DNA of 60,201 nucleotides from Candidatus Onthoplasma sp. (GCA_045637825.1 JAZUAD010000024.1:1-60201); one strand, 5' to 3'; counted from the stretch's first letter, positions 24,703 to 52,910 are shown. Numbers and translations: made by a program. Notes: generated by a model not told the origin, from the sequence alone.

Positions 24703-24727
24703 GTTCGGGCAAATACCCGAATTTTTT
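24703..24727 (+). terminator. terminator hairpin upstream of BspA-like gene 3; near copy at 49576
   Basis: TTCGGG-CAAATA-CCCGAA followed by a T-run. Confidence 0.75.
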
Positions 24728-24791
24728 AATATACTATTTTGATGTTTGTAAATATTTAATATTTTAATATTAAATTAAATAAACAAATATA

Positions 24792-24843
24792 AAAATATAT
24801 TAAAATCTTTTGACAAATTTTGCAGATTAGTGGTATACTAAAA
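24792..24843 (+). promoter_or_regulatory. sigma-A-type promoter of BspA-like gene 3, near-identical to that of gene 4
   Basis: TTGACA 24810-24815, N18, TATACT 24834-24839; 26-bp and 18-bp blocks identical to 49627-49652 and 49661-49678. Confidence 0.8.
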
Positions 24844-24905
24844 GTAATAATGGAATATCATGCAAGAATAAATTAATTGACTTGCAAAACAAAAGGGGTT
24901 TAAAT

Positions 24906-27530
24906 ATGAGCAAGATTAAAAAATTGTTGTTAAGTTCAGTGGTGGCAATTATAATGGCTATTGCTTTTGTAATAGGTCTAGTAGGATTAAAACAAGGCGA
25001 TTTATCAAGTGGTGGCGGTACTAGTAACCACCTAACCGAAGTATCGTTTAACGAGATGTTTGATGTTAAACAATACACCCACGAAATAGGTACAGTAAAG
25101 GTAAAACAAGGTGGTTCAAATCTAAAATATGAATACACCCCAAATGTAACCAGCAGTAATAGTATTGCATATCAATACATATTTAATAACCCAATGAATG
25201 AGTTGATGGCAATTAACTTAAAAAGTATAGATACTACAGGAGTAACAGTAAGTTATGCCTATAGTGATACAAGATTAAAAGATATAACCAGTAGTAATTC
25301 GATATTTGAACCCCAAACTATAGCAAGCAAGGGAACAAAGTACTTTTATATAGTAGTAACCCCAGATAGTACAATCCCAACCAGTTTCCAAGCAAATGTA
25401 GTATGGTATCAAGGCAAAGCAGGAACGTTGACAATAACAAATACATCAAATAATACTACAACAACACAAGTTATAGTAAAGGGGCAAAGCGTTCCAGAAC
25501 CAGCCACACCATCAGTAGATGAAGGATATGTATTTAGTGGTTGGTATTTAGATGAAGAATGTACAATACCAGCAGACTTTAACTCAATGCAAGGTTCAAC
25601 CTTATATCCCAAAATAGAAGAAGAGGTAAGACTAGAGCCAAATCTACCAAGTGACTGGATTGCGTGGGATAGTAGTACTAGTAGTTATTATGTGACTACA
25701 GGAACATCAGAATTGCCTACAGATTTAGTAATCCCAGGAACATATAATGATGGAACACATGGTCAAGCAGATGTTACTTATATAGGTTATGAAGCATTTT
25801 TTATGCAAGAAGGAATACTATCTTTAGATTTAAGTAATTGTACAAGTTTAACAACAATAGGAGAAAATGCTTTTCAAAATTGTTTTAATTTAGTAAGTGT
25901 TAATTTCTCAAATTGTGTTAGTTTAAGTTCAATAGAATTTGGTGCTTTTTATTACGCTAGTAGTTTAAATAGTGTGGATTTGCAAGATTGTATTAGTTTA
26001 ACAACAATAAAAGATAATACTTTTGGTGACTGTATATCTTTAAAAAGTATAGTGATACCAGAAAATGTAGTAAGTATAGGAGAGGATTTTGGCGCTTTCA
26101 ATCATTGTTATAGTTTAGGTGTGGTATATAATTTATCAAGTTTAACAATAACAGCGGGCAGTAGTAGTAATGGTTATGTGGCATATTATGCCGTAGTGGT
26201 AAAAACAAGTTTGGATAATAGTGATATAGAAACAATTAATGGAGTAACCTATTATAAGGAAAGTAGCACAAGTTATATTGCCTTAGGATTGGCGGATACA
26301 AGTTTAACTAGCATAACCTTACACGCTAATACAACTATTATTAGACAATATGCATTTTATGAGAATGGAAATTTAGAAAATGTAGATTTAACTAATTGTA
26401 CAAATTTAACAAATATAGGGATTTGTGCGTTTTCGTATAATTATAAATTATCAAGTATAGTAATACCTGCTACAGTAAATAATATAGAATCCTATGCATT
26501 TGAAAGTTGTTTTGCTTTAGGTATAGTATATAATTTATCAAGTTTAGATATAACAGTAGGAAGTGAAGATAATGGTTATGTAGCACGTTATGCTTATGTA
26601 GTAAAAACAAGTTTGGATAATAGTGATATAGAAATTATAGATGGAGTAATATATTATAAAGAAAGTAGTATAAGTTATATTGCTTTAGGATTGGCAGATA
26701 TAAATTTAACTAGTATAACATTACACCCTAATACAACAGTTATTAAACAATTTATTTTTTATGAAAATGGATGTTTAGAAAGTGTAGATTTAAGTAATTG
26801 TACCAAATTAAAAACAATAGGAGAATGTGCTTTTTCATTTTGTTATGCTTTATTAAGTGTGGATTTAACTAATTGTACAAGTTTAACCACAATAGGAGAG
26901 GATGCATTCGAAAATTGTGTTAGTTTAACTATAAGTTTAAGTAATTGCACTAGTTTAACAACAATAGGTGATGGTGCTTTCTTTCAATGTATGACTTTAA
27001 CTAATGTAGATTTAACCAATTGTACCCAATTAACCACAATAGGAGAATCTGCTTTCAGTAGTTGTGAAAGTTTAGAAATATTAGATTTAAGTAATTGTAC
27101 CAGTTTAGAAACAATAGGAGAATATGCTTTTTCGTATTGTTATAATTTATTAAGTGCAAATTTAAGCAACTGTACAAGTTTAACAACAATAAGTGATGGA
27201 ACTTTCTATGAATGTAGCAGTTTGTCTAGTGTAACGCTTCCAAATAGTTTAGAAATAATAGGCGCAAATTCATTCCGTTATTGTAGCAGTTTGACAACTA
27301 TAACAATTCCTGCAAGTGTTAAGAATATAGGTACATATGCATTCGGTAGCTCAGGATTAACTAGTGCTACATTTAAACAAACTAGTGGGTGGTATAGAAC
27401 AGATGGTGGTATTTCCAATTATGTAACAGTTAGCAACTCTAATACTGCGGCAACCTATTTAAAGTCAACATACAACTATAATTTCTGGTATAATACTAAT
27501 GCGGGTGGTAGTTCTAGCGAATATCAATAA
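24906..27530 (+). CDS. BspA-like LRR_5 surface protein, paralogue 3
   Basis: MSKIKKLLL start homologous to the paralogues (track start 24882 is TTG); DLSNCTSLTTIGExAF repeats; C-terminal FWYNTNAGG cap. Confidence 0.88.
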   Translation: MSKIKKLLLSSVVAIIMAIAFVIGLVGLKQGDLSSGGGTSNHLTEVSFNEMFDVKQYTHEIGTVKVKQGGSNLKYEYTPNVTSSNSIAYQYIFNNPMNELMAINLKSIDTTGVTVSYAYSDTRLKDITSSNSIFEPQTIASKGTKYFYIVVTPDSTIPTSFQANVVWYQGKAGTLTITNTSNNTTTTQVIVKGQSVPEPATPSVDEGYVFSGWYLDEECTIPADFNSMQGSTLYPKIEEEVRLEPNLPSDWIAWDSSTSSYYVTTGTSELPTDLVIPGTYNDGTHGQADVTYIGYEAFFMQEGILSLDLSNCTSLTTIGENAFQNCFNLVSVNFSNCVSLSSIEFGAFYYASSLNSVDLQDCISLTTIKDNTFGDCISLKSIVIPENVVSIGEDFGAFNHCYSLGVVYNLSSLTITAGSSSNGYVAYYAVVVKTSLDNSDIETINGVTYYKESSTSYIALGLADTSLTSITLHANTTIIRQYAFYENGNLENVDLTNCTNLTNIGICAFSYNYKLSSIVIPATVNNIESYAFESCFALGIVYNLSSLDITVGSEDNGYVARYAYVVKTSLDNSDIEIIDGVIYYKESSISYIALGLADINLTSITLHPNTTVIKQFIFYENGCLESVDLSNCTKLKTIGECAFSFCYALLSVDLTNCTSLTTIGEDAFENCVSLTISLSNCTSLTTIGDGAFFQCMTLTNVDLTNCTQLTTIGESAFSSCESLEILDLSNCTSLETIGEYAFSYCYNLLSANLSNCTSLTTISDGTFYECSSLSSVTLPNSLEIIGANSFRYCSSLTTITIPASVKNIGTYAFGSSGLTSATFKQTSGWYRTDGGISNYVTVSNSNTAATYLKSTYNYNFWYNTNAGGSSSEYQ

Positions 27531-27537: not shown

Positions 27538-27571
27538 AAAAAAGGAAGTGGAGAAATCTGCTTTCTTTTTT
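27538..27571 (+). terminator. Rho-independent terminator; 28 bp identical to the terminator at 52768-52795
   Basis: GGAAGTGGA-GAAA-TCTGCTTTC followed by a T-run. Confidence 0.8.
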
Positions 27572-27787
27572 GTTTGGAAGGAATGTGGTTTGAAGGATAA
27601 AATAGTAGAGGGCGGTGACAAAAAGTGGCAATATAGGTTAAAATATCTTAAATTAGGTTTTTCAACCTTAATAAAGTGGTAGTATTTATTTGCAAAAGAT
27701 TTAATATTGTGATATAATAAAGGTGATAACTTTAATAATAAGGTTAATTTTTAGGGTGCTAGGTGATAGCACTAATATTTTATAAAT

Positions 27788-28483
27788 TTGGGACAAGTTA
27801 TGATTTTTTCAATATTTGAATATGACCTAACTATGGGCGAAATGATTTTATTGTTGCTTGCGATAACATTGGTGTTTATGTTATCGTTAGCTTTGCATGA
27901 GTGGGCGCACGGCTTTGTTGCCTACAAGCAAGGTGATAACACTCCTAAAGCTGCGGGTAGATTAACACTTAATCCATTATCGCACATTGATAGTTTGGGT
28001 TTTATAATGTTTTTGTGTATTGGGGTTGGTTGGGCAAAACCTGTGCCAGTTAATCCTAACAACTTTAAAAAATATCGCTCAGGAATAGCTAAAGTGTCTA
28101 TTGCGGGCGTATTGATGAATTTTATTTTATGTATAATAGGTAGTTTGCTATTTGTATTTACCTTAAATCATCTTGGAGATGGCTCTGATTTATTAGTATT
28201 AATTTCATTCTGGTTGATGTGGACTAATGCCTACTTAATGATATTTAACCTTATACCAATCTATCCGCTAGATGGCTTTAATTTTATTAGTTCATTTATG
28301 CGTGGGGATAACAAGTTTGTACAATGGAATATCCGTAATGCAGGAAAAGTGTTTATGTATATTATTTTGATTGACCTATTTGTTGATTTATTCTTTGGTA
28401 TATCGGTTATTGGCTACTTTTTGTCTACTGTAGCGGGCTGGATATGTGAGCCATTGTGTAAACTATGGCAGTTGATGTTTTAG
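27788..28483 (+). CDS. site-2 protease family (M50) zinc metalloprotease
   Basis: HEWAHG, GRLTLNP, GWAKPVPVNP and FNLIPIYPLDG motifs; typical position before scpA. Confidence 0.92.
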   Translation: MGQVMIFSIFEYDLTMGEMILLLLAITLVFMLSLALHEWAHGFVAYKQGDNTPKAAGRLTLNPLSHIDSLGFIMFLCIGVGWAKPVPVNPNNFKKYRSGIAKVSIAGVLMNFILCIIGSLLFVFTLNHLGDGSDLLVLISFWLMWTNAYLMIFNLIPIYPLDGFNFISSFMRGDNKFVQWNIRNAGKVFMYIILIDLFVDLFFGISVIGYFLSTVAGWICEPLCKLWQLMF

Positions 28484-28491
28484 GGGTGAAT

Positions 28492-29319
28492 ATGTCGGAA
28501 GAACTTATGGATAAAAATATTGAACCTGAAGTTGATTTGGTTAACCTAGAGGACGATAATGTAATTAAATACAAAATGCAGGACTTTGAGGGACCTTTAG
28601 ACTTGTTGGTTCATTTAGTTAAGGAAAAGAAAAAAGATATTATGGAAATATCGCTTTCGGAAATTACTGACCAGTATGTAGCATACGTTAGAAAGTTTAA
28701 GGAAGTGGATATGGATATTGCTACTGACTTTTTGGTGCTTGCTTCTAAACTTTTGGCTATTAAATCAGCGAAATTATTGCCAGTAGAACAACTTGATGAT
28801 GAGGATATTGAAGTGCTTGACCAGGAAATGGAAATTAAGTTGATGGCTAAGGAATATGAACTATTTAAAGAGGCGGGTCAAAATTTGCATAATATTGAAA
28901 ATGTTGACCGATTTTATAAAGCTCCTGATAAATCTGTTGGCGATAGCAGAATTGTATTTAATCAATTTAATCTTGATAAGATGCTAGATGCCTTTGCTCG
29001 TATATTAATACGTGTAGAGGATAAAGAAAATCCAGCACCTGAAAAGAAAATTAATCGTGACCGCTGGACTGTGGCGGAAAAACTAGATTTTTTAAAGGGC
29101 GTATTAAAGGAAAATAACGAAATCTCATTTTATAGTTTATTTGACGAAAACTATTCTAAATTGGAAATTATTACAGTGTTTTTAGCGGTGCTGGAACTAT
29201 TAAAGTTTCAATATGCTGAAGTTATCCAGTCTGATGAATATGATAATATAACAATTAGGGCTAAAAATATTGAGGATAAGGACCAAATGCGTCAAAATAT
29301 TGAGGAATTAACACATTAA
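28492..29319 (+). CDS. scpA: segregation and condensation protein A
   Basis: FEGPLDLLVHL, ITDQY, IKSAKLLP and TVFLAVLEL motifs; start moved from 28465. Confidence 0.93.
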   Translation: MSEELMDKNIEPEVDLVNLEDDNVIKYKMQDFEGPLDLLVHLVKEKKKDIMEISLSEITDQYVAYVRKFKEVDMDIATDFLVLASKLLAIKSAKLLPVEQLDDEDIEVLDQEMEIKLMAKEYELFKEAGQNLHNIENVDRFYKAPDKSVGDSRIVFNQFNLDKMLDAFARILIRVEDKENPAPEKKINRDRWTVAEKLDFLKGVLKENNEISFYSLFDENYSKLEIITVFLAVLELLKFQYAEVIQSDEYDNITIRAKNIEDKDQMRQNIEELTH

Positions 29320-29375
29320 ATATAAACAAGGGGATTAAGTAGGGAATTTTCAACCCTAAAATAAAGGAGAAAATA

Positions 29376-30167
29376 ATGAAAATTGCAGATATTGCACGTA
29401 TAATTGAAGCAGTGGTATTTGTGTCGGGCGATGGCGTGGATAAAGATGAATTTAAGCGCATTTATGACCTTTCGGATAAGGAACTTAATAAATGCTTAGA
29501 CATATTAAAGGAAAAATACAACGAAGATAGTGGTATTAATATAATTATGTATAAGAACAAAATACAATTATGTTCTAACCCTGCACTTGCTGACAAGGTG
29601 GCTGAAATTTTAAATCCTATTCGTGAACGTAGTTTGACCAAATCAGCATTGGAAACTATTGCTATTATTGCCTATAAGCAACCTATTACTCGTGCCGAAA
29701 TTGAACATATTAGAGGAACTAGCTCGGACTATGCTATGCAACTACTTCAAAGCAATAATTTGATTGAAGTAGTGGGTCGTAAGGATACTGTAGGTAAGCC
29801 ATTACTTTATGGTACTACTGAAAACTTTTTAAAGCGCTTTGAACTTGAAAGTATTGACGCCTTGCCTAACCATAAGGAATTACTAGACCGTATACGTGTT
29901 ATCCATAGCGAAGGCGATAGTTTGTATCGTGAATTTGACATTCCTGAGGAAGCAAATGAAAGCAAAAGTGAACCTGCTGAAACCTTAGATGATGCACAAG
30001 TGGAAGAAAGTATTTTAAGCGAAGAAATTGTACCTGTAGAGCCAGAAAAAGTTGAGGAAACACCTACAAAAGCGTCTTGGCGTGATAAAATGCGTGCTAA
30101 AATGAGTGAAAATGCTGATAATTATGATAACTTGGATAGCGTGCTTAAAAAAATAAAAAATAATTAA
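29376..30167 (+). CDS. scpB: segregation and condensation protein B (acidic C-terminal extension)
   Basis: LTKSALETIAIIAYKQPITRAEIEHIRG and GKPLLYGTT..FLKRF motifs. Confidence 0.95.
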   Translation: MKIADIARIIEAVVFVSGDGVDKDEFKRIYDLSDKELNKCLDILKEKYNEDSGINIIMYKNKIQLCSNPALADKVAEILNPIRERSLTKSALETIAIIAYKQPITRAEIEHIRGTSSDYAMQLLQSNNLIEVVGRKDTVGKPLLYGTTENFLKRFELESIDALPNHKELLDRIRVIHSEGDSLYREFDIPEEANESKSEPAETLDDAQVEESILSEEIVPVEPEKVEETPTKASWRDKMRAKMSENADNYDNLDSVLKKIKNN

Positions 30168-30180
30168 AGGACTATTAATA

Positions 30181-31044
30181 ATGGGAATATTTGGAAATTT
30201 TTTTAAAAGAATTAAATATGCTTTTACAAAAAACGAACTTAACGATGATTTTTATGATGAACTAGAACAAACCTTGATTAGTTCGGATATGGGAGTTATG
30301 ACCAGTGAGGAAATTATCGATGAGTTTAAGGATACTGTAAAGCAAAGAATGATTAAGGATACCGAAAACGCACAAAAAGTTTTGCGTGAAATTTTGGTAA
30401 ATAAACTAAAGTTTGATGAACTTCAATTTGAATATCCAATGATTATTACTGTTGTGGGTGTTAATGGCGTAGGCAAGACCACTAGCATTGCAAAAATGGC
30501 TAATTATTTTAGCAAACTTAAAAAGAATGTTATGCTTGTTGCAGGAGATACCTTTAGAGCTGCTGCTACCGAACAATTAGATGAATGGGCAACACGACTT
30601 AAACTAAAAATTGTTAAGCAAGGTGAAGGCGCGGATAGCGCTAGCGTAGTATTTGACGGAATTTCATCAATGAAAGCAAAAAAAGCAGACGTCTTGATAG
30701 TTGATACCGCAGGTCGCTTGCATACAAAAGTTAATCTTATGAAAGAATTGGAAAAAATTAACAATGTGGCTAAGCGTGAATATCCTGAAGCAAAACATAT
30801 CAACCTTATAGTGCTAGATGCAAGCATTGGTCAAAATTCGTTGGCTCAAGTAGAGGCCTTTAAGCAAAGCGTTGATATTGATGGCATTATATTAACCAAA
30901 CTTGATGGAACTGCTAAGGGCGGAGTTGCTTATCCTATAGTTAAGGAACTAGAAGTGCCTATTGTATTTACTGGCTTTGGCGAAACTATAAATGATTTGA
31001 CTAAGTTTAATGTGGAAGAATTTGTAGATAAAATTTTAATGTAA
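30181..31044 (+). CDS. ftsY: signal recognition particle receptor FtsY
   Basis: GVNGVGKTTS, GDTFRAAA, DTAGRL and TKLDGTAKGG motifs. Confidence 0.96.
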   Translation: MGIFGNFFKRIKYAFTKNELNDDFYDELEQTLISSDMGVMTSEEIIDEFKDTVKQRMIKDTENAQKVLREILVNKLKFDELQFEYPMIITVVGVNGVGKTTSIAKMANYFSKLKKNVMLVAGDTFRAAATEQLDEWATRLKLKIVKQGEGADSASVVFDGISSMKAKKADVLIVDTAGRLHTKVNLMKELEKINNVAKREYPEAKHINLIVLDASIGQNSLAQVEAFKQSVDIDGIILTKLDGTAKGGVAYPIVKELEVPIVFTGFGETINDLTKFNVEEFVDKILM

Positions 31045-31050
31045 AATAGT

Positions 31051-31087
31051 AAAAACAAGCGTAAAATTTAGTGTTTACGCTTGTTTT
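31051..31087. terminator. bidirectional terminator between ftsY and the lytic transglycosylase gene
   Basis: AAAAACAAGCGTAAA...TTTACGCTTGTTTT. Confidence 0.8.
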
Positions 31088-31631
31088 ATAGATTATAAAA
31101 ATCCTTATATATTTTTTGACCAGACTGAATTTTTTTAATATAATTGTCAGTTTCCTTGTAAGGTATATTATATAACGATATTTGGTCGTAGGAATAACGT
31201 TGGTCCTTTAGCCAACTACGTACAACCGTTTCGCCAGCATTGTAGGCAGCAATCGAGGTGTAAATACTATCAAATCGGTTAAAAAGATAGTCAAGATACA
31301 TTGCTCCTATGTATAAATTGTCGCTAGGGTTATATAAGTCAAAGTTACTATAATTAAGGTTGTTTTTAACACAAATATATTCGGCAGTCGAAGGTAATAC
31401 TTGGGTTAACCCTATGGCTCCAGCGCTAGATTTAGCATTAGGATTAAAACTACTTTCAGCATTAATTAAGGCGTAAAATAAAGGTTTTGGAATATCAAAT
31501 TTGTCACACACAGCATTGATTTGAGAAGAGTATTTTACAGGATAACAAAAAGTTATACTGCAATTATACATTGCAATACCCACAATTAATATATATAACA
31601 CAATCAATATGCTTGCGCTAATTTTTTGCAT
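31086..31631 (-). CDS. soluble lytic transglycosylase (SLT domain) with N-terminal membrane anchor
   Basis: INAESSF, GAIGLTQV, AAYNAG and IPYKET..Y motifs. Confidence 0.92.
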   Translation of the reverse strand: MQKISASILIVLYILIVGIAMYNCSITFCYPVKYSSQINAVCDKFDIPKPLFYALINAESSFNPNAKSSAGAIGLTQVLPSTAEYICVKNNLNYSNFDLYNPSDNLYIGAMYLDYLFNRFDSIYTSIAAYNAGETVVRSWLKDQRYSYDQISLYNIPYKETDNYIKKIQSGQKIYKDFYNL

Positions 31632-31751
31632 ATTTTAGTTTACGCTAAAACTATAATAAATATTTTATAAACACTAAAATAAGTACTAGTAATATTAAAA
31701 GAAATTTAATTTAATATTGCTTTTTTTAGTTAGATATGTTAATATATATTT

Positions 31752-32303
31752 ATGGAAAAAATTGTATTTGCAAAAGATGATGAGGCTTATTCAACTTCAC
31801 GTGGGCGATGGTGTAAATATTTTTTTAATCAAAACCATCAAGATGGTCTAGTGGTAATAGGTGAAACTGATGATTACTTTTATTTTACTTTGTCGCTTAA
31901 AGATGGGGTTTTAAAAGATGAATACTGCATTACTATTAGTCAAGATAGTGCAATTTATAATCCATTAAGTAAGGTTTTAAAGGGCTTTAAACTAATAGAT
32001 GTATTTGAGGAAGGTACGCCTGAAAGAAAAAGTTTAAAATTGCAAAAACATAATAAGGATATCCAAATAGTTTTTAGTTTAACTAGTGAGGAAAGGGTAT
32101 TTTACACTATCGAATTTGCTAATTTGCGTAGATTAGGCGATACACGCTTTAAAGATGTTGTTTTAGATAATAAAAATAAGCAATTTGATGTAGAGGCAGA
32201 AAGAGAATTTAGATATAAGTTTAAGGTAAGACTTCATAATTTGTTAGATGACTTGGAATTATTGTATAATGATATAAAATATAATCAAGCATATCAAATT
32301 TAA
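31752..32303 (+). CDS. hypothetical ORFan protein
   Basis: 183-aa ORF directly upstream of engB; no recognisable motif. Confidence 0.7.
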   Translation: MEKIVFAKDDEAYSTSRGRWCKYFFNQNHQDGLVVIGETDDYFYFTLSLKDGVLKDEYCITISQDSAIYNPLSKVLKGFKLIDVFEEGTPERKSLKLQKHNKDIQIVFSLTSEERVFYTIEFANLRRLGDTRFKDVVLDNKNKQFDVEAEREFRYKFKVRLHNLLDDLELLYNDIKYNQAYQI

Positions 32304-32316
32304 TAAAGGAGAAAGT

Positions 32317-45189: not shown

Positions 45190-45249
45190 TATCAAAATGC
45201 TAAATTTAAAGTTTAGCATTTTTTTATTGTATTTTTAATATATTTAAGT

Positions 45250-45507: not shown

Positions 45508-46604
45508 AACCATTAGTAAAAATACGTGTTGTGGGTTATAATCTTGACCAACTACTTAACAAACTTCAAAATAAAAATATTATAGTGTATAACATTGAAC
45601 GATCGGAAAACAATGTTATGTTTTTTAGCATTAATTATAAGGACTTAAAACAAGTAAAACCGCTACTTAAAAATTACGAATATAATTTAAAATATCTTGG
45701 ATTAGCAAATTTAAAAAACTTTATCAAAAACAACTTGGCAATTTTATTAATTATTCCTTTTGCGCTTGTGTTGATGGCTTTTTCTACTAGACTTACGTGG
45801 AATATTAAAATTTATGGTGCAGAGGGAGAGTTGGATAGGCAGGTTATTAGCATATTAAAAGACAATAATATTAGCGTTGGAAAAGTTTTGCCACAAAATA
45901 CCGAAGATATTGAAAAAATATTACTTAATCAACTGCCAAATGTAGCTCAGGTAAGTTGCATAACTAGGGGAACCACTATAATAATTAATATTAGTAAAAA
46001 ATTAGTGTATGTTCCTGAGAGCTATGAACCTTTACGTGCTAGTTATAGTGGAGTTATTACCGGGTTTTCGTTGATTTCTGGAACAATGGCGGTTAATTGT
46101 GGTGATTTTGTAAATAATGGTGATATTTTAGTTTATCCTTTTGCTTTGGATAAAAATGGAAATCAAGTTAAAGTTGAACCGATTGCAGAGGTTAGGGCAA
46201 AGGTATATATTGTTGGCTCTTCTAAACTTAGTGCAACAACCACCGAACTGGTTAGGACAGGGCGAAAATATACAACATATAGTACAAAATTTTTAAACAC
46301 AAAATTATTTTCAAAAAAATATCAAAAACCATTTGATATTTATGAAAGTTGCGTGTATAATGAAAATATAAGTAGTGTGTTGCCTATTAAACGAACAAGG
46401 GTAATATATTATGAACTAGATTATGTTGTAGTTAACTATGACTTGGTGGCGGAGAAAGGTAGAATTGAGAGAGAAAGTATTGATTTGGCGTACCTTAATT
46501 TGCCTACAAATAGCGAGATTTTGGATGAACAAACCACAAGTCTAGTGATTAATGATACACTATATACAACCACAACTTTAACAATATCTACAATTATTAG
46601 TTAA
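45504..46604 (+). CDS. yqfD: stage IV sporulation protein YqfD-like
   Basis: W.IKIYG, RGTTIII, A...GVI......G...V..GDFV..GDILV and AEVRAKV motifs. Confidence 0.8.
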   Translation: MKPLVKIRVVGYNLDQLLNKLQNKNIIVYNIERSENNVMFFSINYKDLKQVKPLLKNYEYNLKYLGLANLKNFIKNNLAILLIIPFALVLMAFSTRLTWNIKIYGAEGELDRQVISILKDNNISVGKVLPQNTEDIEKILLNQLPNVAQVSCITRGTTIIINISKKLVYVPESYEPLRASYSGVITGFSLISGTMAVNCGDFVNNGDILVYPFALDKNGNQVKVEPIAEVRAKVYIVGSSKLSATTTELVRTGRKYTTYSTKFLNTKLFSKKYQKPFDIYESCVYNENISSVLPIKRTRVIYYELDYVVVNYDLVAEKGRIERESIDLAYLNLPTNSEILDEQTTSLVINDTLYTTTTLTISTIIS

Positions 46605-46681
46605 AAATTTTAGAAAAATATAATTAACGATATAAATTAGTAGATATACTTATTTGGTGTGCTTATAGCACGGAGGAAAAT

Positions 46682-47173
46682 ATGCTTAACGTTTATTCAA
46701 AAATACGTACATTTGATAATAGTATAATAAGAGACCTAGAAAGTGTTATCAAAACGGCTTTCAAGGTTTTAGGACAACCTACTAAGAATATTAAATATAA
46801 CCTTTACGTTGTGTCAAAGGCGTTTATTCACGACCTTAATTTGTCCACTCGTGGAGTAGATAAGGCAACTGATGTATTAAGTTATCCAACTACGAATATT
46901 AATGCTGGAGAGGTGCTTAATTTGGATAACTACCAGTTTGATATTGACCCTATGGATAATAGTTTATTGGTAGGCGAGATATTTATTTGTAACGAAGTGG
47001 CCAAAGCGCAAGCAAAGAAGTATAATCATAGTTTTAGGCGGGAGTTTTGCTTTTTGTTCCTACACGGCGTGTTGCATTGTTTGGGCTATGACCATATAGA
47101 GGAAAGTGACCGTAAAATTATGGAAGAAATGCAAACAAAAATATTAAATAAATGCAAAATTACGAGGGATTAA
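46682..47173 (+). CDS. ybeY: rRNA maturation RNase YbeY
   Basis: RGVDKATDVLSYP, GEIFIC and HGVLHCLGYDH motifs. Confidence 0.96.
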   Translation: MLNVYSKIRTFDNSIIRDLESVIKTAFKVLGQPTKNIKYNLYVVSKAFIHDLNLSTRGVDKATDVLSYPTTNINAGEVLNLDNYQFDIDPMDNSLLVGEIFICNEVAKAQAKKYNHSFRREFCFLFLHGVLHCLGYDHIEESDRKIMEEMQTKILNKCKITRD

Positions 47174-47189
47174 ATTTAGGGATATAACT

Positions 47190-47648
47190 ATGAAAGAATT
47201 AAGTAAAGATGCTATTGAAAAAGCAGCAATAAATGCAGAAGTGAAATTGATGCAAGAATGTAGAAGAAATTTTTCAAAACAAGCAGATGAAGTTATTGAA
47301 AAAATTAAAAGAGGTGAAAAGTCTAATGATGCGGATTATTTCATTTTATTGAACACTGACCAAAAGAAGATAGATGAAGCAATTAGATTGCAAGACATTA
47401 AGGATAGAATTGCAAAGGGTAGAATTAGACACGAAGATATCGACTTTTTAGTTAATTTATTAGGTAATGTTGGGGAATTTGATAAAGCATTAAGAAATGC
47501 ATTTTACATTAGGGGAGACCAAATGAATTTAATGTATGCTCAACAGAATCCTGACGAGTTTACTCCAGAAGAAATTGAACAAATGAAACAAAAACTTAGA
47601 GAGGGCAGAACCATTAAACAAGTTTTAGAAGAAGATTTAGTTAGATAG
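47190..47648 (+). CDS. hypothetical ORFan helical protein (ends ...EEDLVR)
   Basis: 152-aa ORF between ybeY and era; all 12 Arg codons are AGA/AGG (hand count). Confidence 0.75.
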   Translation: MKELSKDAIEKAAINAEVKLMQECRRNFSKQADEVIEKIKRGEKSNDADYFILLNTDQKKIDEAIRLQDIKDRIAKGRIRHEDIDFLVNLLGNVGEFDKALRNAFYIRGDQMNLMYAQQNPDEFTPEEIEQMKQKLREGRTIKQVLEEDLVR

Positions 47649-47677
47649 AATATTTTATAATTATTAAGGAAGTATAA

Positions 47678-48577
47678 ATGGAATTTAAATGCGGATATGT
47701 AACAATAATAGGCAATACTAATGTGGGTAAAAGCACGTTAATTAATCGTATAGTTGGTGAAAAGGTATCAATAGTGTCGCCAAAGGCACAAACATCACGT
47801 GATAACACTATTGGAATATATAATGACGATAATAGTCAAATTATATTTATTGATACACCGGGATACCACAAAACTGAGCATAAACTAGATGAATATATGC
47901 AAGAAAATATCGACAATGCAATCAATAGCGATGTTAATGTATTAATATATGTGATTGACGGCAAAAAACCACTTGTAGAGCAATATGAAAAATTGGCTAA
48001 CAAGGGCGATAAACGTAGCAAAAAGATACTAGTAATTAATAAGATTGATGAAACAACTTTTGAAAAGTTGTATCCTCAACTAGCAAAACTTAATGAGATA
48101 ACAAAAGTTGATGAAATTTTACCACTTTCAGCACTAAAGGGTAAGAACGTAGATGTGTTAATTGATATGATTAAAAAGTATTTGCCAACCTTTGATTATG
48201 AAATGAGATATTATCCAATTGAACAATTTACTGACAAAAATGTTCGATTTTTGTCGAGTGAAATAATCAGGGAAAAAGTTTTGCTATTATATAATGAGGA
48301 GATACCTCATGGCGTGGCAGTGCAAATTACTAAATTTGACGAAAGCGAAGAGATAATCAAAATTAGCGCAGATATTTATTGTGAAAAGGATAGTCATAAA
48401 ATGATAATAATAGGCAAAAATGGTGAGGCGATTAAAAAACTATCCACAATTTCACGTGTTGCTATTGAAAAGTTACTAGACGCTAGGGTGTATTTGGAGT
48501 TATTTATCAAGGTTAAACCTAATTGGCGAATAGATAATTTAATGCTTGATGAATTTGGATATACAAACAAAGATTAG
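47678..48577 (+). CDS. era: GTPase Era
   Basis: GNTNVGKSTL, DTPG, NKID, EIIREK...EEIPH and IIGKNG (KH domain) motifs. Confidence 0.97.
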   Translation: MEFKCGYVTIIGNTNVGKSTLINRIVGEKVSIVSPKAQTSRDNTIGIYNDDNSQIIFIDTPGYHKTEHKLDEYMQENIDNAINSDVNVLIYVIDGKKPLVEQYEKLANKGDKRSKKILVINKIDETTFEKLYPQLAKLNEITKVDEILPLSALKGKNVDVLIDMIKKYLPTFDYEMRYYPIEQFTDKNVRFLSSEIIREKVLLLYNEEIPHGVAVQITKFDESEEIIKISADIYCEKDSHKMIIIGKNGEAIKKLSTISRVAIEKLLDARVYLELFIKVKPNWRIDNLMLDEFGYTNKD

Positions 48578-48625
48578 TGAATATATTTGAACTATAATCA
48601 TATACTAAAGTAGGGGGATAATAAT

Positions 48626-48826
48626 ATGGAAATTACACAAAACGGATTAAATCAATTAAGCAATGTAGCATTGGTATATGCTATAACAAATCTTGATTGC
48701 TACAAGAGTGGCAAGTCAAGTATGCAACAATATTATTTTCCTATTAGAAGGTTAACTTCTGCTGTTAATAGTTTAGGCAATAGTTATAGTGATATTGCTG
48801 AGCAAGAAACTGAATTAACTAGATAG
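48626..48826 (+). CDS. small hypothetical ORFan protein (66 aa, ends ...ETELTR)
   Basis: SD AGGGGG; fills the era-recO gap; does not resemble YqzL. Confidence 0.6.
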   Translation: MEITQNGLNQLSNVALVYAITNLDCYKSGKSSMQQYYFPIRRLTSAVNSLGNSYSDIAEQETELTR

Positions 48827-48842
48827 TATGTAAAAGGATATA

Positions 48843-49499
48843 ATGGATACAAAGGTCAAAGGAATAATTTTAAATACTAAAGATTATCTTGAGGCAGATA
48901 AAATTGCCTCAATTTTTTCATACGAGCAAGGAATAATTAGTGCTAAATTTGTTGGAGTTAAAAAGGAAAAGGCAAAACTAAAAGCACTAGCGCAACCTTT
49001 TACACTTGCCGAGTTTGAACTAATTACCAAAAAGGATTTTCATACGGTTAAACAAGGATTGGTTATTGATAATTTCCCACAAATTATCAGTGATTATAAT
49101 AAAACTATTTGTGCTTTTATATTGGTGGATATAATCAAAAGTATTTTGCCTAAAAATAAGCCAGAAAGCGATTTGTTTTTGCTTAGTGTAAATGCGCTTA
49201 AAAAAATAGAGCAAGAAGATGCTATGCAGTCGTTGATAGAATTTATAATACAATTTATTGATGAACTGGGCGAGGGGCTTAATTTATTTGAGCAAGATGG
49301 AAAAGTGTATTTGGATAAAATGGTGGCGGACTTTACTCCAACGCCTACAATTAATAGCGTGGAAATAGATAAAAAGGTGTATAAGGCGTTAATAGTGCCA
49401 AATGTTAATCAAAATATTAAAAAGTCGTGCCTAAAGTTATTAAACACGATACTTTTGCTAAAATATGATGTTGAATTAAAATCATTTAGTTTTTTATAA
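48843..49499 (+). CDS. recO: DNA repair protein RecO (no C4 zinc finger)
   Basis: GIIL..KDYLEADKI..IFS...G.I....GVKK..KL..LAQPF OB-fold; located after era. Confidence 0.88.
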   Translation: MDTKVKGIILNTKDYLEADKIASIFSYEQGIISAKFVGVKKEKAKLKALAQPFTLAEFELITKKDFHTVKQGLVIDNFPQIISDYNKTICAFILVDIIKSILPKNKPESDLFLLSVNALKKIEQEDAMQSLIEFIIQFIDELGEGLNLFEQDGKVYLDKMVADFTPTPTINSVEIDKKVYKALIVPNVNQNIKKSCLKLLNTILLLKYDVELKSFSFL

Positions 49500-49575
49500 T
49501 TAGTGTTGTTTAAAATATTAAAAATTGTTAATTAAATTTATTAAAAATATCAAATTAGAATATTAAAATTATTAA

Positions 49576-49603
49576 AATTCGGGGCAAATCCTCGAATTTT
49601 TTT
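49576..49603 (+). terminator. terminator hairpin upstream of BspA-like gene 4; near copy at 24703
   Basis: AATTCGGGG-CAAAT-CCTCGAATT followed by a T-run. Confidence 0.7.
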
Positions 49604-49626: not shown

Positions 49627-49678
49627 AAAATATATTAAAATCTTTTGACAAAATTTTACAATTAGTGGTATACTAAAA
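49627..49678 (+). promoter_or_regulatory. sigma-A-type promoter of BspA-like gene 4
   Basis: TTGACA 49645-49650, N18, TATACT 49669-49674. Confidence 0.8.
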
Positions 49679-49740
49679 TTAATAAATATTGTGCAACTAT
49701 GAATTAATATATTGAAATTAGGTTGTAAAGGGGTTTTAAT

Positions 49741-52700
49741 ATGAGTAAACTTAAAAAATTATTGTTAAGTTCAGTAATAGCAGTTACAATGGCTATTGCT
49801 TTTGTGGTTGGTATTGTTGGGCTAAATAAAGATAATGTTACTAATAAAACCAAGTTAACACAGGTCGCTTATAGCGATATGTTTGAGGTCAAACAATATA
49901 GTTATGATAACAATGAAGTATTGATGTGTAAGGGTAAGGATAATATCAAATATAGTTATATCCCTGGTGTAAATAGTAAGGAAACATCAGTAGTATCATT
50001 TGAATATAGGTTTAATAATCCAATGTCAACCCCTATGGCAATAAACCTAGATAGTATAGATACAACAGGAGTAACAGTAAGTTACGCCTATAGTGATACC
50101 AAACTAAATAGTATAACAAATAGTACATCACCATTTGAGGCACAAACTATACAACCAAATCAAACCAAGTACATATACGTGGTAGTAACAGCAGGAAATA
50201 TTGCATCAACCACCGAATTTCAATCAGAAATCTCATGGTGGCAAGGTAAAGCAGGAACAATGTCGTATGTAATAGAGGGCAATATATCTAATGCAACCAT
50301 AGTTAAGGGACAACCAGTAAATGAACCTATTAATACAGATGAAAGTATATTAATAGCAGGTTGGTATTTAGATAGTGATCATACAATACCTGCAACTTTC
50401 CCATTAAACACACAAGGTCAAACATTATATGCGCAAGTAGCTGATGGTAATTTGCCTAGTGACTGGATTACTTGGGATAGTAGTACTAGTACTTATACTA
50501 TTGCAAGTGGGTCATCTTCACTGCCTGAGAATGTAATAGTGCAAGGCACACACAATGATGGTACACATGGTAAAGCGAATATTACATCGGTATCTACAGA
50601 AGCTTTTTATTATTATGATTATATAAAATCAATAAATTTAAGCAAGTGTACAGGATTAACAACAATAAATACATACGCATTTGGTTTTGCTCAAGGTTTA
50701 AAAAAGGTTGTTTTACCTACGAGTTTAACAACAATAGGAAATAATGCATTCTATAGCTGTATTAAATTAACAAGTATAGACTTAAGTGTTTGTTCCAATT
50801 TAACTTCTATAGGTGAAAATGCTTTTTATGGTAATGCCTTTCCTGTTGCGGATTTAAGAAATTGCACTAATTTAACAATCATTAGTAGTAAAGCGTTTAA
50901 TAATCATACTCGTTTACAAACTGTTATATTACCTCCAAATATAACCTCTATAGGAACAGAAGCTTTTAGTTGTGTAAAATTAAAAAATGTTGATTTTAGC
51001 AGGTGTACTAAATTAACAACAATAAATCAAAGTGCTTTTAATGGTGCATCATTAACAAGAGTTGATTTGAGTTATTGTACCAGTTTAAAAACAATAGGTA
51101 ACTATGCTTTTAATAATAATTATAGACTAACTAGCATAATTATTCCATCAAAGGTTACTAGTCTTAGTAGTTCCGGATTTCAAAACACATATGCGTTAGC
51201 AGAAGTATATAATTTATCTGGTTTAACAATAACGTTAGGAGGTAGTTATGGTCATGTAGGGTACTATGCAAAAGTTATACATACAAGTTTATCTACACCA
51301 TCTAGTATTATAACAATAGAAGGAGTGCAATATTATAAGGAAAGTGATACTAGTTATATAGCATTAGCTCCAACAGATAATAGTATAAAATATGCAAATT
51401 TACATCCAAATACAACTTCTATTAATAGTTATGCTTTTAGAACGTGTTATGAATTGGGGTATGTAGTTATTCCAAGTAATGTGACAAGTATACAAAAAGA
51501 TGCATTTTATTATTGCTATGGGTTGAAATATATATACGATTTATCGCCTAATGTAACTATTACTGCAGGCGGAACAGATAATGGAAATGTTGGGCAATAT
51601 GCAACAGTTATAAAAACAAGTTTAGATGATTGTATTGAAACTATAAATGGAGTAATCTATTATAAGAATAGTGACTCCAATTACACAGCGTTGGGTACTG
51701 AAGATAAAAGTATTACTAGTATAACACTGCATCCTAATACCGTAGAGATTAATGATTACGCATTTAGGAGCTATTATAATTTGGCGAGTGTGGATTTAAG
51801 CAGATGTACAAAATTAACTACAATAGGAAGTAATGCATTCTATGAATGTAGTAGTTTAACAAGTGTAGATTTAAGTAATTGTACAAGTTTAACCACAATA
51901 GGAAGTAGTGCATTCCAACAATGTAGTAGTTTAACAAGTGTAGGAGATTTAAGCAGATGTACAAAATTAACTACAATAGGAAGTAATGCATTTTCTGCTT
52001 GTAGTAGTTTAACAAGTATAGTAATCCCAAGTGGAGTAACAAATATAGGAAATACAGCTTTTGGTACGTGTTATACCTTAGGTGTGGTATATAATTTATC
52101 AAGTTTAACAATAACAGCTGGAAGTAGCGATAATGGGTATGTGGCAAATTATGCAGGAGTGGTTAAAACAAGTTTGGATACAGAAAATAAGTTTGAAACA
52201 ATAAATGGAGTAACCTACTATAAAGATAGTGCTACAAGTTATATTGTTATATGTCTAGCAGATATAAGTTTAACAAGTATAACTTTACACGCAAATACAA
52301 CAATAATTAAACCTTATGCTTTCTATGGTAAAAGAATTTTAACAGAGGTTAATTTCACTAATTGTACAAAATTAACTACAATAGGAAATTATGCTTTTCA
52401 AAGTTGTGTCAGTGTAACAAGTGTAGATTTAAGCAATTGTACAAAATTAACAATAATAGGAAGGTCTTCATTTGCTTCTTGTAGTAAATTAATAAGTATA
52501 ACTATACCAGCAAGTGTTAAAAATATAGGTACATATGCATTCAGTGGTAGTAAAGCTTTAACCAGTGCAACGTTTAAACAAACTAGTGGTTGGTATGTAA
52601 CAACGTCTAAGACATCGTCTGGTACAAGTTTGACCTCAACTGATTTAAGCGATACAAGCACTGCAGCAACGTATTTAATATCAACACACTATACTAAATT

Positions 52701-52749
52701 CTGGTATAATACTAATGCTGGTGGTAAGTATAGTGATTATGTAGCATAA
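49741..52749 (+). CDS. BspA-like LRR_5 surface protein, paralogue 4
   Basis: Same anchor, N-domain, B-repeat and NLPSDW head; DLSxCTxLTTIGxxAF repeats; three insert modules; FWYNTNAGG cap. Confidence 0.88.
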   Translation: MSKLKKLLLSSVIAVTMAIAFVVGIVGLNKDNVTNKTKLTQVAYSDMFEVKQYSYDNNEVLMCKGKDNIKYSYIPGVNSKETSVVSFEYRFNNPMSTPMAINLDSIDTTGVTVSYAYSDTKLNSITNSTSPFEAQTIQPNQTKYIYVVVTAGNIASTTEFQSEISWWQGKAGTMSYVIEGNISNATIVKGQPVNEPINTDESILIAGWYLDSDHTIPATFPLNTQGQTLYAQVADGNLPSDWITWDSSTSTYTIASGSSSLPENVIVQGTHNDGTHGKANITSVSTEAFYYYDYIKSINLSKCTGLTTINTYAFGFAQGLKKVVLPTSLTTIGNNAFYSCIKLTSIDLSVCSNLTSIGENAFYGNAFPVADLRNCTNLTIISSKAFNNHTRLQTVILPPNITSIGTEAFSCVKLKNVDFSRCTKLTTINQSAFNGASLTRVDLSYCTSLKTIGNYAFNNNYRLTSIIIPSKVTSLSSSGFQNTYALAEVYNLSGLTITLGGSYGHVGYYAKVIHTSLSTPSSIITIEGVQYYKESDTSYIALAPTDNSIKYANLHPNTTSINSYAFRTCYELGYVVIPSNVTSIQKDAFYYCYGLKYIYDLSPNVTITAGGTDNGNVGQYATVIKTSLDDCIETINGVIYYKNSDSNYTALGTEDKSITSITLHPNTVEINDYAFRSYYNLASVDLSRCTKLTTIGSNAFYECSSLTSVDLSNCTSLTTIGSSAFQQCSSLTSVGDLSRCTKLTTIGSNAFSACSSLTSIVIPSGVTNIGNTAFGTCYTLGVVYNLSSLTITAGSSDNGYVANYAGVVKTSLDTENKFETINGVTYYKDSATSYIVICLADISLTSITLHANTTIIKPYAFYGKRILTEVNFTNCTKLTTIGNYAFQSCVSVTSVDLSNCTKLTIIGRSSFASCSKLISITIPASVKNIGTYAFSGSKALTSATFKQTSGWYVTTSKTSSGTSLTSTDLSDTSTAATYLISTHYTKFWYNTNAGGKYSDYVA
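51793..51992 (+). repeat. 47-bp exact direct repeat inside the LRR-coding array (51793-51839 and 51946-51992)
   Basis: GATTTAAGCAGATGTACAAAATTAACTACAATAGGAAGTAATGCATT occurs twice, 153 bp apart. Confidence 0.85.
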
Positions 52750-52762
52750 ATTAATAAAAAAT

Positions 52763-52797
52763 AAAAGGGAAGTGGAGAAATCTGCTTTCTTTTTTTT
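52763..52797 (+). terminator. Rho-independent terminator, copy of the one at 27538
   Basis: GGAAGTGGAGAAATCTGCTTTC followed by a T-run. Confidence 0.8.
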
Positions 52798-52910
52798 GAT
52801 ATAAAATGGTTAGTAGATTGGGATAAATTTTTTAGAGGGATTTATTATATATACTTGACTAATATGGGAAAGAATATTATACTTATTTTAAGTATAAAAG
52901 GTGATATTAA

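What the first reader, a model, noticed from the sequence alone, without database searches (positions are those of the whole stretch)
24703..52840. LRR paralogues 3 and 4 sit in matching terminator-promoter-gene-terminator cassettes at unrelated loci
Seen: homology extends outside the CDS on both sides. Upstream hairpins are TTCGGGCAAATACCCGAATTTTTTAATATA (24704) and TTCGGGGCAAATCCTCGAATTTTTTTAATATA (49578). Promoter blocks of 26 and 18 bp are identical. A 28-bp terminator is identical (27544-27571 and 52768-52795), followed by GGATAAA-N5/6-AGAGGG in both. Flanking genes differ (ORFan and M50 protease versus recO and trmH), and much of the coding interior is more diverged than these flanks. 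Inference: the unit was copied as an insulated expression cassette, or conserved flanks serve as homology arms for swapping the variable interior. No transposase, terminal inverted repeat or target duplication is evident.
Basis: partly seen in the sequence, partly recalled or inferred. Interest (0 to 1): 0.7.

Follow-up and report, generated by a model that had tools for sequence, protein, structure and literature searches.

The report
Surface-protein gene family swapping promoter modules
Two genes of a large family of leucine-rich-repeat surface proteins in a one-megabase gut-type bacterium share near-identical promoter and terminator modules because family members trade such pieces by recombination, and the two genes flank a block of housekeeping genes that has moved.

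Summary
Genes A (24906-27530) and B (49741-52749) are BspA-type LRR genes. They share an upstream hairpin found nowhere else in the genome, identical 26- and 18-nt promoter blocks, and an identical 28-nt terminator. Their coding sequences are only 53% identical in protein, and 4-fold-site identity is 0.52.

- A and B belong to a family of at least 12 self-contained genes. The -10 block TAGTGGTATACTAA precedes 8 family genes here but is essentially unmatched in 40 other genomes of the genus. The terminator occurs in 4 paralogues here and in none of those 40.
- Promoter type conflicts with the coding-sequence tree. A has B's promoter but paralogue C17a's transcribed region, with a break at 24850/24851 (Fisher p 7e-11).
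- The loci are not unrelated. rplT and trmH are neighbours in 27 of 40 genus genomes. Here they are 28.7 kb apart, as ORFan-A-[22 kb M50...recO]-B. A, B and C17a each sit exactly in a junction rearranged relative to the closest relatives.

Best reading: a surface-protein multigene family whose end modules are exchanged by homologous recombination, and which marks or mediates rearrangements. I found no sign of a transposon. This is a new member of a known kind, of moderate interest.

The parts
24382..24702 (+). It is the last gene of synteny block c.
   Evidence: No Pfam family. Homologues sit after rplT in G003, G034, G040 and, weakly, G044.
24701..24727 (+). Hairpin plus T-run upstream of A. 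It serves as terminator of the preceding gene and is the left end of A/B homology.
   Evidence: -10.9 kcal/mol; stem found only here and at 49578. The relatives carry different hairpins at this position.
24792..24846 (+). Promoter of A: TTGACA (24810-24815), 18-nt spacer, TG-extended TATACT (24834-24839), including the 26- and 18-nt blocks identical to B.
   Evidence: (11 of 12 consensus positions, TG present).
24850..24851 (+). Inferred recombination breakpoint in A. Upstream of it A is B-like; downstream it is C17a-like.
   Evidence: Informative-site test: 26 AB against 9 AC upstream, 36 AB against 168 AC downstream, Fisher p 7e-11.
24906..27530 (+). LRR paralogue A, 874 aa: N-terminal hydrophobic anchor, N-terminal domain, Flg_new repeat, LRR_5 arrays and a conserved C-terminal ...FWYNTNAGG motif.
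   Evidence: Pfam LRR_5 3.1e-71 and Flg_new 3.9e-08. Mosaic painting.
27540..27612 (+). Terminator of A (28-nt core 27544-27571) plus a G-rich tail ending in GGATAAA..AGAGGG. This is the right end of A/B homology.
   Evidence: (-18.4 kcal/mol).
27788..49499 (+). 22-kb block of core genes (M50 protease ... era, recO) bracketed by A and B in direct orientation.
   Evidence: In G034 and G051 its two parts (M50...30181 and 31086...recO) lie elsewhere.
49574..49603 (+). Hairpin plus T-run upstream of B. It now acts as the recO terminator but is not orthologous to the recO terminators of relatives.
   Evidence: (-12.0 kcal/mol).
49627..49681 (+). Promoter of B: TTGACA 49645-49650, TG-extended TATACT 49669-49674.
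49741..52749 (+). LRR paralogue B, 1002 aa.
   Evidence: Pfam LRR_5 3e-95.
52763..52839 (+). Terminator of B (28-nt core 52768-52795) plus a tail with GGATAAA..AGAGGG. Homology to relatives resumes at the trmH promoter, near 52855.
23876..24223 (+). rplT, the left partner of the ancestral rplT|trmH neighbourhood.
52911..53642 (+). trmH-like SpoU methylase, the right partner of the ancestral neighbourhood.
11122..15228 (+). LRR paralogue at 11185-15228 with a family promoter (same -10 block). It sits at the junction between blocks b and c.
27..2299 (+). LRR paralogue at 149-2299. Its promoter carries the upstream element shared exactly with three G003 LRR genes.

Best explanation
A and B are two of at least 12 genes for BspA-type leucine-rich-repeat proteins, probably anchored at the cell surface by an N-terminal hydrophobic segment.

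Anatomy. Each gene is a self-contained, monocistronic unit with four parts:
- a strong sigma-70-type promoter (TTGACA, 18 nt, TG-extended TATACT);
- a conserved ribosome-binding site and anchor-coding start;
- a variable repeat interior;
- a conserved C-terminal motif followed by an intrinsic terminator.

Mechanism (inferred). The end modules are passed between paralogues by homologous recombination or gene conversion, independently of the coding interior. These modules are (i) the upstream terminator plus promoter up to the transcription start and (ii) the terminator plus about 45 nt. As a result the ends stay near-identical within this genome while the interiors diverge and become mosaics.

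Shown:
- Module identity is far above synonymous-site identity.
- The -10 block and the terminator are restricted to this genome.
- Promoter type disagrees with the coding tree.
- There is a sharp break at the start of the transcribed region of A.

The two genes are not at unrelated loci. Together they occupy the ancestral rplT-ORFan|trmH junction and bracket, as direct repeats, a 22-kb block of core genes.

Inferred: the family, the main dispersed repeat of this small genome, either supplies the homology for such block moves or settles in the same permissive gaps.
For: Family:
- phmmer finds 17 related ORFs, 14 of them with E of 1e-49 or lower.
- An alignment of 12 upstream regions shows a shared promoter and anchor-coding start.
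- A profile of that promoter finds only those 12 sites at E < 1e-4 in the genome. These are its own training set; the next best hit has E 0.007.

Modules far above neutral identity:
- Hairpin-to-start module: 101 of 105 aligned positions identical.
- Terminator: 28 of 28 identical in A, B and C17a.
- Four-fold-site identity over the first 280 codons is 0.52 for A-B and has a median of 0.45 over 45 paralogue pairs. G000-G003 orthologues give 0.62 and the random expectation is 0.37.

Genome-specific:
- TTGACA-N12-TAGTGGTATACTAA (up to 2 mismatches) has 8 hits in this genome, all before LRR genes. The 40 other genus genomes give 1 weak hit.
- The terminator (up to 3 mismatches) has 4 hits here and 0 in those 40.
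- Of 8 upstream regions of LRR genes read in G003, none has this -10 block, and 6 share another one, AAATTG(T/G)TAAAAT.

Incongruence:
- In the N-terminal tree A pairs with C17a (100/98) and C24_11185 with C25 (97/98).
- Yet A has B's promoter, and C24_11185 has the promoter of C30, C13b and C18, which lie across a 100/99 branch.
- Triplet test with a break at 24850/24851, p 7e-11.
- Mosaic painting of A.

Place:
- rplT and trmH lie on one contig, 0.1-4.8 kb apart, in 27 of 40 genus genomes.
- G034, G040 and G044 have rplT-ORFan-trmH. G003 has rplT-ORFan-LRR-trmH.
- A, B and C17a fill junctions c|d, e|f and z|y, where G003 and G034 have c|f and e|y.
- The paralogue at 11185 fills junction b|c, where G034 has b|d and G003 has b-LRR-d.
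Against: - Tree: G003 paralogues fall into two G003-only clades, and a split by species is not excluded (59/93). Part of the family may therefore have expanded after speciation, with shared ends then inherited by descent.
- Synonymous-site argument: the case against that reading rests on few sites (39-79 per pair) in poorly alignable proteins.
- Selection: some conserved blocks coincide with functional elements. One upstream element is 100% conserved between G000 and three G003 genes, which shows purifying selection on at least part of the promoter.
- No direct evidence of exchange: no reads, strains or hybrids were available. A's only close relatives among 5.8 billion protein clusters are its own paralogues.
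- Short repeats: identical stretches are about 36 nt or less, which is short for efficient RecA-dependent exchange.
- Causality: the rearrangement history needs several steps and could not be reconstructed. One changed junction in the window (7833|7974) has no LRR gene, so a causal role for the family is not shown.
- Expression: promoters and terminators are predicted only. No RNA data were available.
Confidence: 0.6

Rival explanations
1. There is no exchange. The flanks are simply cis-regulatory elements (regulator or UP-element site, -35, -10, terminator) kept by purifying selection since an old duplication, while the rest decays. This would be paralogous footprinting.
For: - Conserved blocks coincide with the -35 and -10 regions, the RBS, the anchor-coding start and the terminator. 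The 5'UTR between the -10 and the RBS is diverged.
- The element AAATTTGTAAAAAAATGTAAAAACTATT is exact in G000 C24:27-54 and before three G003 LRR genes.
Against: - The -10 block and the terminator were not found in 40 other genus genomes (one weak -10 match apart), including G003 with at least 11 paralogues.
- A terminator needs its structure, not 28 identical bases.
- Promoter type contradicts well-supported coding clades.
- The hairpin-to-start module is 96% identical in its spacer bases too.
Confidence: 0.15
2. A recent duplication of a whole insulated cassette (hairpin to terminator) took place, followed by very fast diversifying evolution of the coding part only.
For: - Homology covers the entire unit.
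- Paralogues cluster largely by species in the N-terminal tree.
- No orthologue of A above 56% identity exists in 5 close relatives, whose core proteins are 79-97% identical.
Against: - Four-fold-site identity for A-B (0.50-0.52) is below that of G000-G003 orthologues (0.62). The coding parts therefore look older than the species split, while the flanks look younger.
- A's 5' third is C17a-like (4-fold identity 0.76), not B-like.
Confidence: 0.12
3. The unit is a mobile cassette moved by a dedicated recombinase or transposase acting in trans, with the hairpins or tails as its sites.
For: - The unit has sharp ends: homology to relatives stops at the recO stop codon and resumes at the trmH promoter.
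- One paralogue (C25) has a tyrosine recombinase gene directly upstream.
- G-rich tails follow several terminators.
Against: - No terminal inverted repeats.
- No transposase next to A or B. The genome holds only 4 tyrosine recombinases and 1 resolvase, and the nearest to A and B is at C24:115262.
- The hairpin occurs at only 2 of about 12 paralogues.
- No simple filled-against-empty pair with a target duplication could be defined.
Confidence: 0.05
4. The arrangement is an assembly artefact: contig C24 of this metagenome-assembled genome is misjoined at the repeated LRR genes.
For: - The genome is a 44-contig assembly.
- Contigs of the relative G003 break at LRR genes.
Against: - The longest identical stretches between A and B are about 36 nt, and the best interior match is 43 nt at 91%. 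That is shorter than usual assembly words.
- Each junction has unique sequence.
- The sequence after the A terminator (TTTTTTGTTTGGAA) is also found ahead of M50 in G003. There, too, an LRR gene precedes M50.
Confidence: 0.05

Closest known systems
Tropheryma whipplei WiSP surface-protein family (PMC2078596, passages read)
   Same: A reduced genome in which paralogous surface-protein genes with conserved parts lie at the ends of rearrangements. Examples are a large inversion and a 19-kb deletion flanked by two WiSP genes, comparable to the 22-kb block flanked here by A and B.
   Different: WiSP repeats are long (784 bp at 99%) and lie in the coding WND domain. Here the shared pieces are about 36-150 nt of promoter and terminator, and the protein family is unrelated (LRR_5). 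No rearranged strain pair is available here.
Mycoplasma agalactiae vpma / M. bovis vsp loci (PMC2268961, passages read)
   Same: Families of variable surface proteins whose 5' untranslated and signal-peptide-coding regions are conserved while the rest differs. The conserved 5' region is where recombination takes place.
   Different: Those genes are clustered, share one promoter and are switched by Xer1 site-specific inversion. Here the genes are dispersed and each has its own promoter. Those in the window are co-oriented, and no recombinase lies next to A or B. Here the promoter itself is the exchanged module.
BspA-like gene family of Candidatus Mycoplasma girerdii (PMC5476646, passages read)
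   Same: A small genome with many (at least 28) diverse BspA-like LRR surface-protein genes that belong to the variable gene set.
   Different: Variation there is by length changes of dinucleotide repeats. No such repeats occur in or before the 13 genes examined here. Flank modules were not described in the passages I read.
BspA of Tannerella forsythia and the Pfam LRR_5 family (named in PMC5476646; function recalled)
   Same: The same repeat type (Pfam LRR_5), and a presumed adhesin-like surface role.
   Different: Only the repeats are shared. The N-terminal domain and the C-terminal motif of this family have close relatives only in uncultured Clostridia, at 44% identity or less to A.

Membership tests
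BspA-type LRR (Pfam LRR_5) surface proteins | LRR_5 repeats above the curated cut-off | tested here: met
   A scores 237.6 bits and B 315.3 bits against a cut-off of 27.7.
BspA-type LRR (Pfam LRR_5) surface proteins | Export or surface anchoring | not tested
   The N-terminal MSKIKKLLLSSV...hydrophobic stretch was read from the translation. No signal-peptide predictor was run and there is no experiment.
Intrinsic (rho-independent) terminators | Stable G+C-containing hairpin followed by a T-run | tested here: met
   Four elements fold at -10.9 to -18.4 kcal/mol with z-scores of -3.7 to -5.8. Scan hits.
Site-specific inversion systems of surface-protein families (vpma/vsp type) | Clustered genes sharing one promoter, with an adjacent recombinase | tested here: not met
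   Each gene has its own promoter and the genes are spread over at least 9 contigs. No recombinase lies near A or B.
Site-specific inversion systems of surface-protein families (vpma/vsp type) | Conserved 5' untranslated and signal-peptide-coding region | tested here: met
   (RBS plus first 90 nt are 0.60-0.90 identical).
Transposons, IS elements or integron-type cassettes | Terminal inverted repeats, target duplication, transposase or integrase, or attC-like site at every copy | tested here: not met
   No terminal inverted repeats. The hairpin is at only 2 copies. Recombinases lie elsewhere.
Repeat-mediated genome rearrangement (WiSP type) | Paralogous repeats exactly at the ends of rearranged segments | tested here: met
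   A, B, C17a and the paralogue at 11185 fill four junctions that differ from G003 or G034. One changed junction (7833|7974) has none.
Repeat-mediated genome rearrangement (WiSP type) | Long, near-identical repeats adequate for homologous recombination | tested here: inconclusive
   The longest identical stretch is about 36 nt. The hairpin-to-start module is 101 of 105 identical with indels. The A-C17a 5' region is 0.8-0.98 identical over about 630 nt.
Simple-sequence-repeat phase variation (as in Ca. M. girerdii BspA-like genes) | Homopolymer or dinucleotide tracts in the promoter or 5' coding region | tested here: not met
   None in 13 genes apart from terminator T-runs and one TA(5) late in C18.
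Concerted evolution by gene conversion | Paralogous segments more alike within a genome than orthologues between species, and discordant with neighbouring segments | tested here: met
   Caveat: species clustering of the coding tree is not excluded.

The most novel reading that the evidence does not exclude
The end modules are a built-in exchange system: the upstream terminator-promoter unit ending at the transcription start, and the terminator with its G-rich, C-poor tail. They would act as portable homology arms, perhaps with the G-rich tail as an initiating site, as G-rich sequences are for pilin variation in Neisseria (recalled, not checked here). This would let a genome without insertion sequences reshuffle its surface-protein repertoire. 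As a side effect it could excise, move or amplify blocks of core genes bracketed by two family members, such as the 22-kb M50...recO block between A and B.
Probability: 0.15. Interest if true: 0.75.

Novelty: new member of a known kind. Interest (0 to 1): 0.42.

Why it matters
Small, host-associated genomes often keep one large family of surface proteins, and how such families stay variable is a recurring question. Here the comparison of one genome with its genus gives three clean results:
- Promoter and terminator modules are traded between paralogues separately from the coding part.
- There is a mapped break at the start of the transcribed region.
- Family members sit exactly in the junctions where gene order changed.

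The finding also has a practical use for annotators of uncultured gut Clostridia. These genes mark contig breaks and synteny breaks. The family promoter, including an element conserved across two species, is a ready candidate for a shared regulator site.

Tried and rejected
- Public sequencing runs: none was listed for 48800-53700, and no RNA holder was listed. Junctions, circles, hybrids and transcript ends could therefore not be checked, and read laying was not used.
- The search for related loci in genome contigs with protein A returned only distant LRR or Flg_new matches in other taxa.
- The fuzzy-regex scan for the hairpins timed out and was replaced by BLAST.
- My own quick terminator finder missed the two upstream hairpins, so it was not used for any count.
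- BLAST at 88% identity or above between paralogues missed the short modules. Windowed painting was used instead.
- Tested whether the 78-nt spacer between recO and hairpin B is a remnant of the ORFan 3' end. It is not: score 21 against 19.4 +/- 3.1 in shuffles, p 0.29.
- Simple one-step histories were considered and none fits all adjacencies. These were an inversion between two LRR genes, and excision of a circle followed by re-integration. They fail because recO is followed directly by the y block in G003 and G034, with no LRR gene there. I give no reconstruction.
- Rfam gave no match in the window at gathering thresholds.
- In one search the M50 and ORFan rows are artefacts of my extraction (frame lost at indels). 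They add only 5 of the 336 pooled sites.
- The first literature search returned only eukaryotic NLR papers.


Full report
**1. What is there**

The window is the first 60,201 bases of contig C24 of a 1,048,919-base, 44-contig assembly with about 31% G+C.

- Gene A (24906-27530, 874 aa) and gene B (49741-52749, 1002 aa) are BspA-type leucine-rich-repeat proteins. Pfam LRR_5 scores are 3.1e-71 and 3e-95, and A also has a Listeria-Bacteroides repeat.
- Two more family members lie in the window, at 149-2299 and 11185-15228.
- Neighbours: rplT and a small gene without a Pfam family lie before A, and an M50 peptidase lies after it. recO lies before B, and a SpoU/TrmH-type methylase lies after it.

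**2.

- The two hairpins, the 26- and 18-nt promoter blocks, the 28-nt terminator and the downstream GGATAAA..AGAGGG motif are all at the stated places.
- The hairpin stem occurs nowhere else in the genome.
- Both hairpins and both terminators fold far better than shuffles.
- The promoter is a near-consensus TTGACA-18-TATACT with a TG extension.
- From the hairpin to about the transcription start, 101 of 105 aligned bases are identical, with about 39 extra bases in A.
- By contrast, the coding parts are 53% identical in protein. Four-fold degenerate sites are 0.50 identical over 166 sites, where chance gives 0.37.
The hairpins are not a generic repeat, and flank identity is far above synonymous identity.

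**3. A family, not a pair**

- phmmer finds 17 related ORFs in the genome. Fourteen are strong (E of 1e-49 or lower), and two of those are cut by contig ends.
- Twelve have an alignable upstream region with the same architecture: an A/T-rich upstream element, TTTTGAC, an 18-nt spacer, an extended -10, an AAAGGGG ribosome site and a nearly constant anchor-coding start.
- A profile of this promoter finds those 12 sites at E < 1e-4 and nothing else. They are its own training set; the next best hit is 0.007 at a contig end.
- There are promoter subtypes. A and B form one (0.82 identical over 105 nt). The genes at C24:11185, C30, C13b, C18 and the fragment on C11 form another, at 0.80-0.89 among the four compared. 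C11's close match is seen in the alignment.
- The N-terminal coding parts of these genes are only 0.60-0.67 identical.
- The 28-nt terminator is exact in A, B and C17a and has 2 mismatches in C25. C30 has a variant of it.

**4. The modules are exchanged**

Three lines of evidence agree.

(a) The modules are specific to this genome.
- TTGACA-N12-TAGTGGTATACTAA (up to 2 mismatches) occurs 8 times here, always before an LRR gene. In 40 other genomes of the genus it occurs once, weakly.
- The terminator (up to 3 mismatches) occurs 4 times here and never in those 40 genomes.
- G003 is the closest relative (RecO 89% identical) and has at least 11 family members. Of the 8 upstream regions I read there, none has this -10 block. 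Six share another one, AAATTG(T/G)TAAAAT, which resembles the C17a type of this genome.

(b) The timing does not fit simple inheritance.
- Four-fold-site identity between G000 and G003 orthologues is 0.62 (336 sites).
- Between paralogue N-terminal domains it has a median of 0.45 over 45 pairs, with A-B at 0.52. The exception is A-C17a at 0.76.
- The coding parts thus look older than the species split, and the shared modules look younger.

(c) Promoter type and coding sequence disagree.
- In an ML tree of the N-terminal 300 residues, A pairs with C17a (100/98) and C24_11185 with C25 (97/98).
- C30 and C13b are separated from C24_11185 and C18 by a 100/99 branch. Yet those four share one promoter, while C25 and C17a have the other type.
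- For the triplet A/B/C17a, informative sites switch from 26 AB against 9 AC (positions -130 to -45) to 36 AB against 168 AC (-12 to +640). Fisher p is 7e-11, and the best break lies between window positions 24850 and 24851, just after the -10 region.
- Painting A in 60-nt windows shows a mosaic: B-like promoter, C17a-like from -9 to about +620 (0.8-0.98), C36-like at 1191-1400 and 1671-1790, and C23-like near the 3' end. Shuffled windows reach at most 0.58.

**5. Caveats**

- G003 paralogues form two G003-only clades, and a clean split by species is not excluded (59/93). Part of the family may have expanded after speciation.
- The synonymous-site counts are small.
- Selection certainly acts on part of the promoter. 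AAATTTGTAAAAAAATGTAAAAACTATT is exact before the gene at 149 and before three G003 LRR genes, although the two genomes are only about 82% identical in core-gene DNA.
- I therefore read the pattern as selection on a family promoter architecture, plus exchange of whole modules within the genome.

**6. The loci are not unrelated**

- In 27 of 40 other genus genomes, rplT and trmH lie on one contig and strand, 104 nt to 4.84 kb apart.
- The gap holds varied cargo: helicase-like proteins, a nucleotidyltransferase, lipoproteins and a P-type ATPase. An LRR family gene is there only in G003.
- Close relatives G034, G040 and G044 have rplT-ORFan-trmH. G003 has rplT-ORFan-LRR-trmH; its contig C28 overlaps C37 by about 140 nt.
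- Here the same two genes are 28.7 kb apart, as ORFan, A, a 22-kb block (M50 ... era, recO), then B. A keeps the left flank of the old junction and B keeps the right flank.
- recO is followed in G003 (directly) and in G034 (after one gene) by a block y: a short ORF, a 143-aa protein and a 526-aa protein. In this genome y lies on contig C17 directly behind paralogue C17a. Homology to G003 resumes 72 nt past its terminator.
- M50 is preceded in G034 by block b (window genes 7974-10182) and in G003 by b plus an LRR gene; contig C6 overlaps C21 by 141 nt. Here b is followed by the paralogue at 11185, then block c (15448 ... rplT, ORFan), then A, then M50.
- Four family members thus fill four junctions that differ from the relatives. 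One further changed junction (7833|7974) has no LRR gene.
- No one-step path explains all adjacencies, and I do not offer a reconstruction.
- Either the family supplies the homology for block moves, as proposed for the WiSP genes of Tropheryma whipplei (PMC2078596, passages), or family genes and breakpoints both prefer the same gaps between operons.

**7. What it is not**

- No terminal inverted repeats.
- No simple-sequence repeats of the kind that switch the BspA-like genes of Ca. Mycoplasma girerdii (PMC5476646, passages).
- No recombinase beside A or B. Of 4 tyrosine recombinases and 1 resolvase in the genome, one lies next to paralogue C25.
- No Rfam family in the window.
- The family differs from the vpma/vsp systems (PMC2268961, passages). 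Each gene has its own promoter, the genes are dispersed, and the promoter itself is the exchanged piece.

**8. Breadth**

- In a search of about 5.8 billion protein clusters, the best matches to A are its own paralogues.
- Outside proteins reach at most 44% identity. Where they are named, they are labelled leucine-rich repeat proteins of uncultured Clostridia.
- No orthologue of A's N-terminal domain above 56% identity exists in the five closest relatives.

**9. Verdict**

This is a multigene family of surface-protein genes with recombining end modules, lying at rearranged junctions. That makes it a new member of a known kind of system. Expression, exchange in real time, and any causal role in rearrangement remain untested, because no reads were available.

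Noticed in passing
27572-27631; also downstream of paralogues C17a, C30, C25 and C17b on other contigs of the genome: A G-rich, C-poor tract follows the terminator directly. G minus C is 19-23 in 60 nt, and at most 0.04% of genome windows reach this, although I took the maximum over about 140 windows per gene. It is present in 5 of 13 family genes. Its function is unknown; a recombination or G-quadruplex role is speculation.
   Followed up: partly
27465-27494 and 52681-52710: A promoter-like site, TCAACA-18-TGGTATAAT with a TG extension, lies inside the 3' end of both A and B. It overlaps the codons of the conserved FWYN motif. It could start a short RNA of about 75 nt ending at the conserved terminator, or it could be a by-product of the protein motif.
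   Followed up: no
L046 (G003:C28) 3350-3620; L048 (G003:C21) 2780-2980; L128 (G003:C6) 9430-9572: In the relative G003, LRR genes are followed by a run of small hairpins, each preceded by GTGAAG-like words. Pieces of this repeat match many G003 contigs. It was not seen in this genome.
   Followed up: no
L046 (G003:C28) about 1390-1500; L038 (G003:C36); L049 (G003:C2) tail: Two G003 LRR genes carry a structured 5' leader of about 110 nt that closely resembles the leader ahead of rpmI in the same genome. One of the two copies is in reverse orientation.
   Followed up: no
window 27-54; G003:C28:1264-1291, C30:36489-36516(-), C45:13478-13505: A 28-nt upstream promoter element with phased TGTAAAAA repeats is exact in one gene here and in three LRR genes of G003. 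It is a candidate regulator or UP-element site for the family.
   Followed up: partly
24224-52910 here; L108-L127 in relatives: The rplT|trmH gap is a variable spot across the genus. It ranges from 104 nt to 4.8 kb and holds helicase-like genes, a nucleotidyltransferase, lipoproteins or a P-type ATPase in different species.
   Followed up: partly
G000:C25:8824-10080(-): A 418-aa tyrosine recombinase gene lies directly upstream of LRR paralogue C25 (5647-8199, minus strand). It is the only family member with such a neighbour.
   Followed up: no
5930-5955: A copy of the 26-nt A/B promoter block with 2 mismatches lies ahead of a 135-aa ORF (6049-6456) that is not an LRR gene.
   Followed up: no
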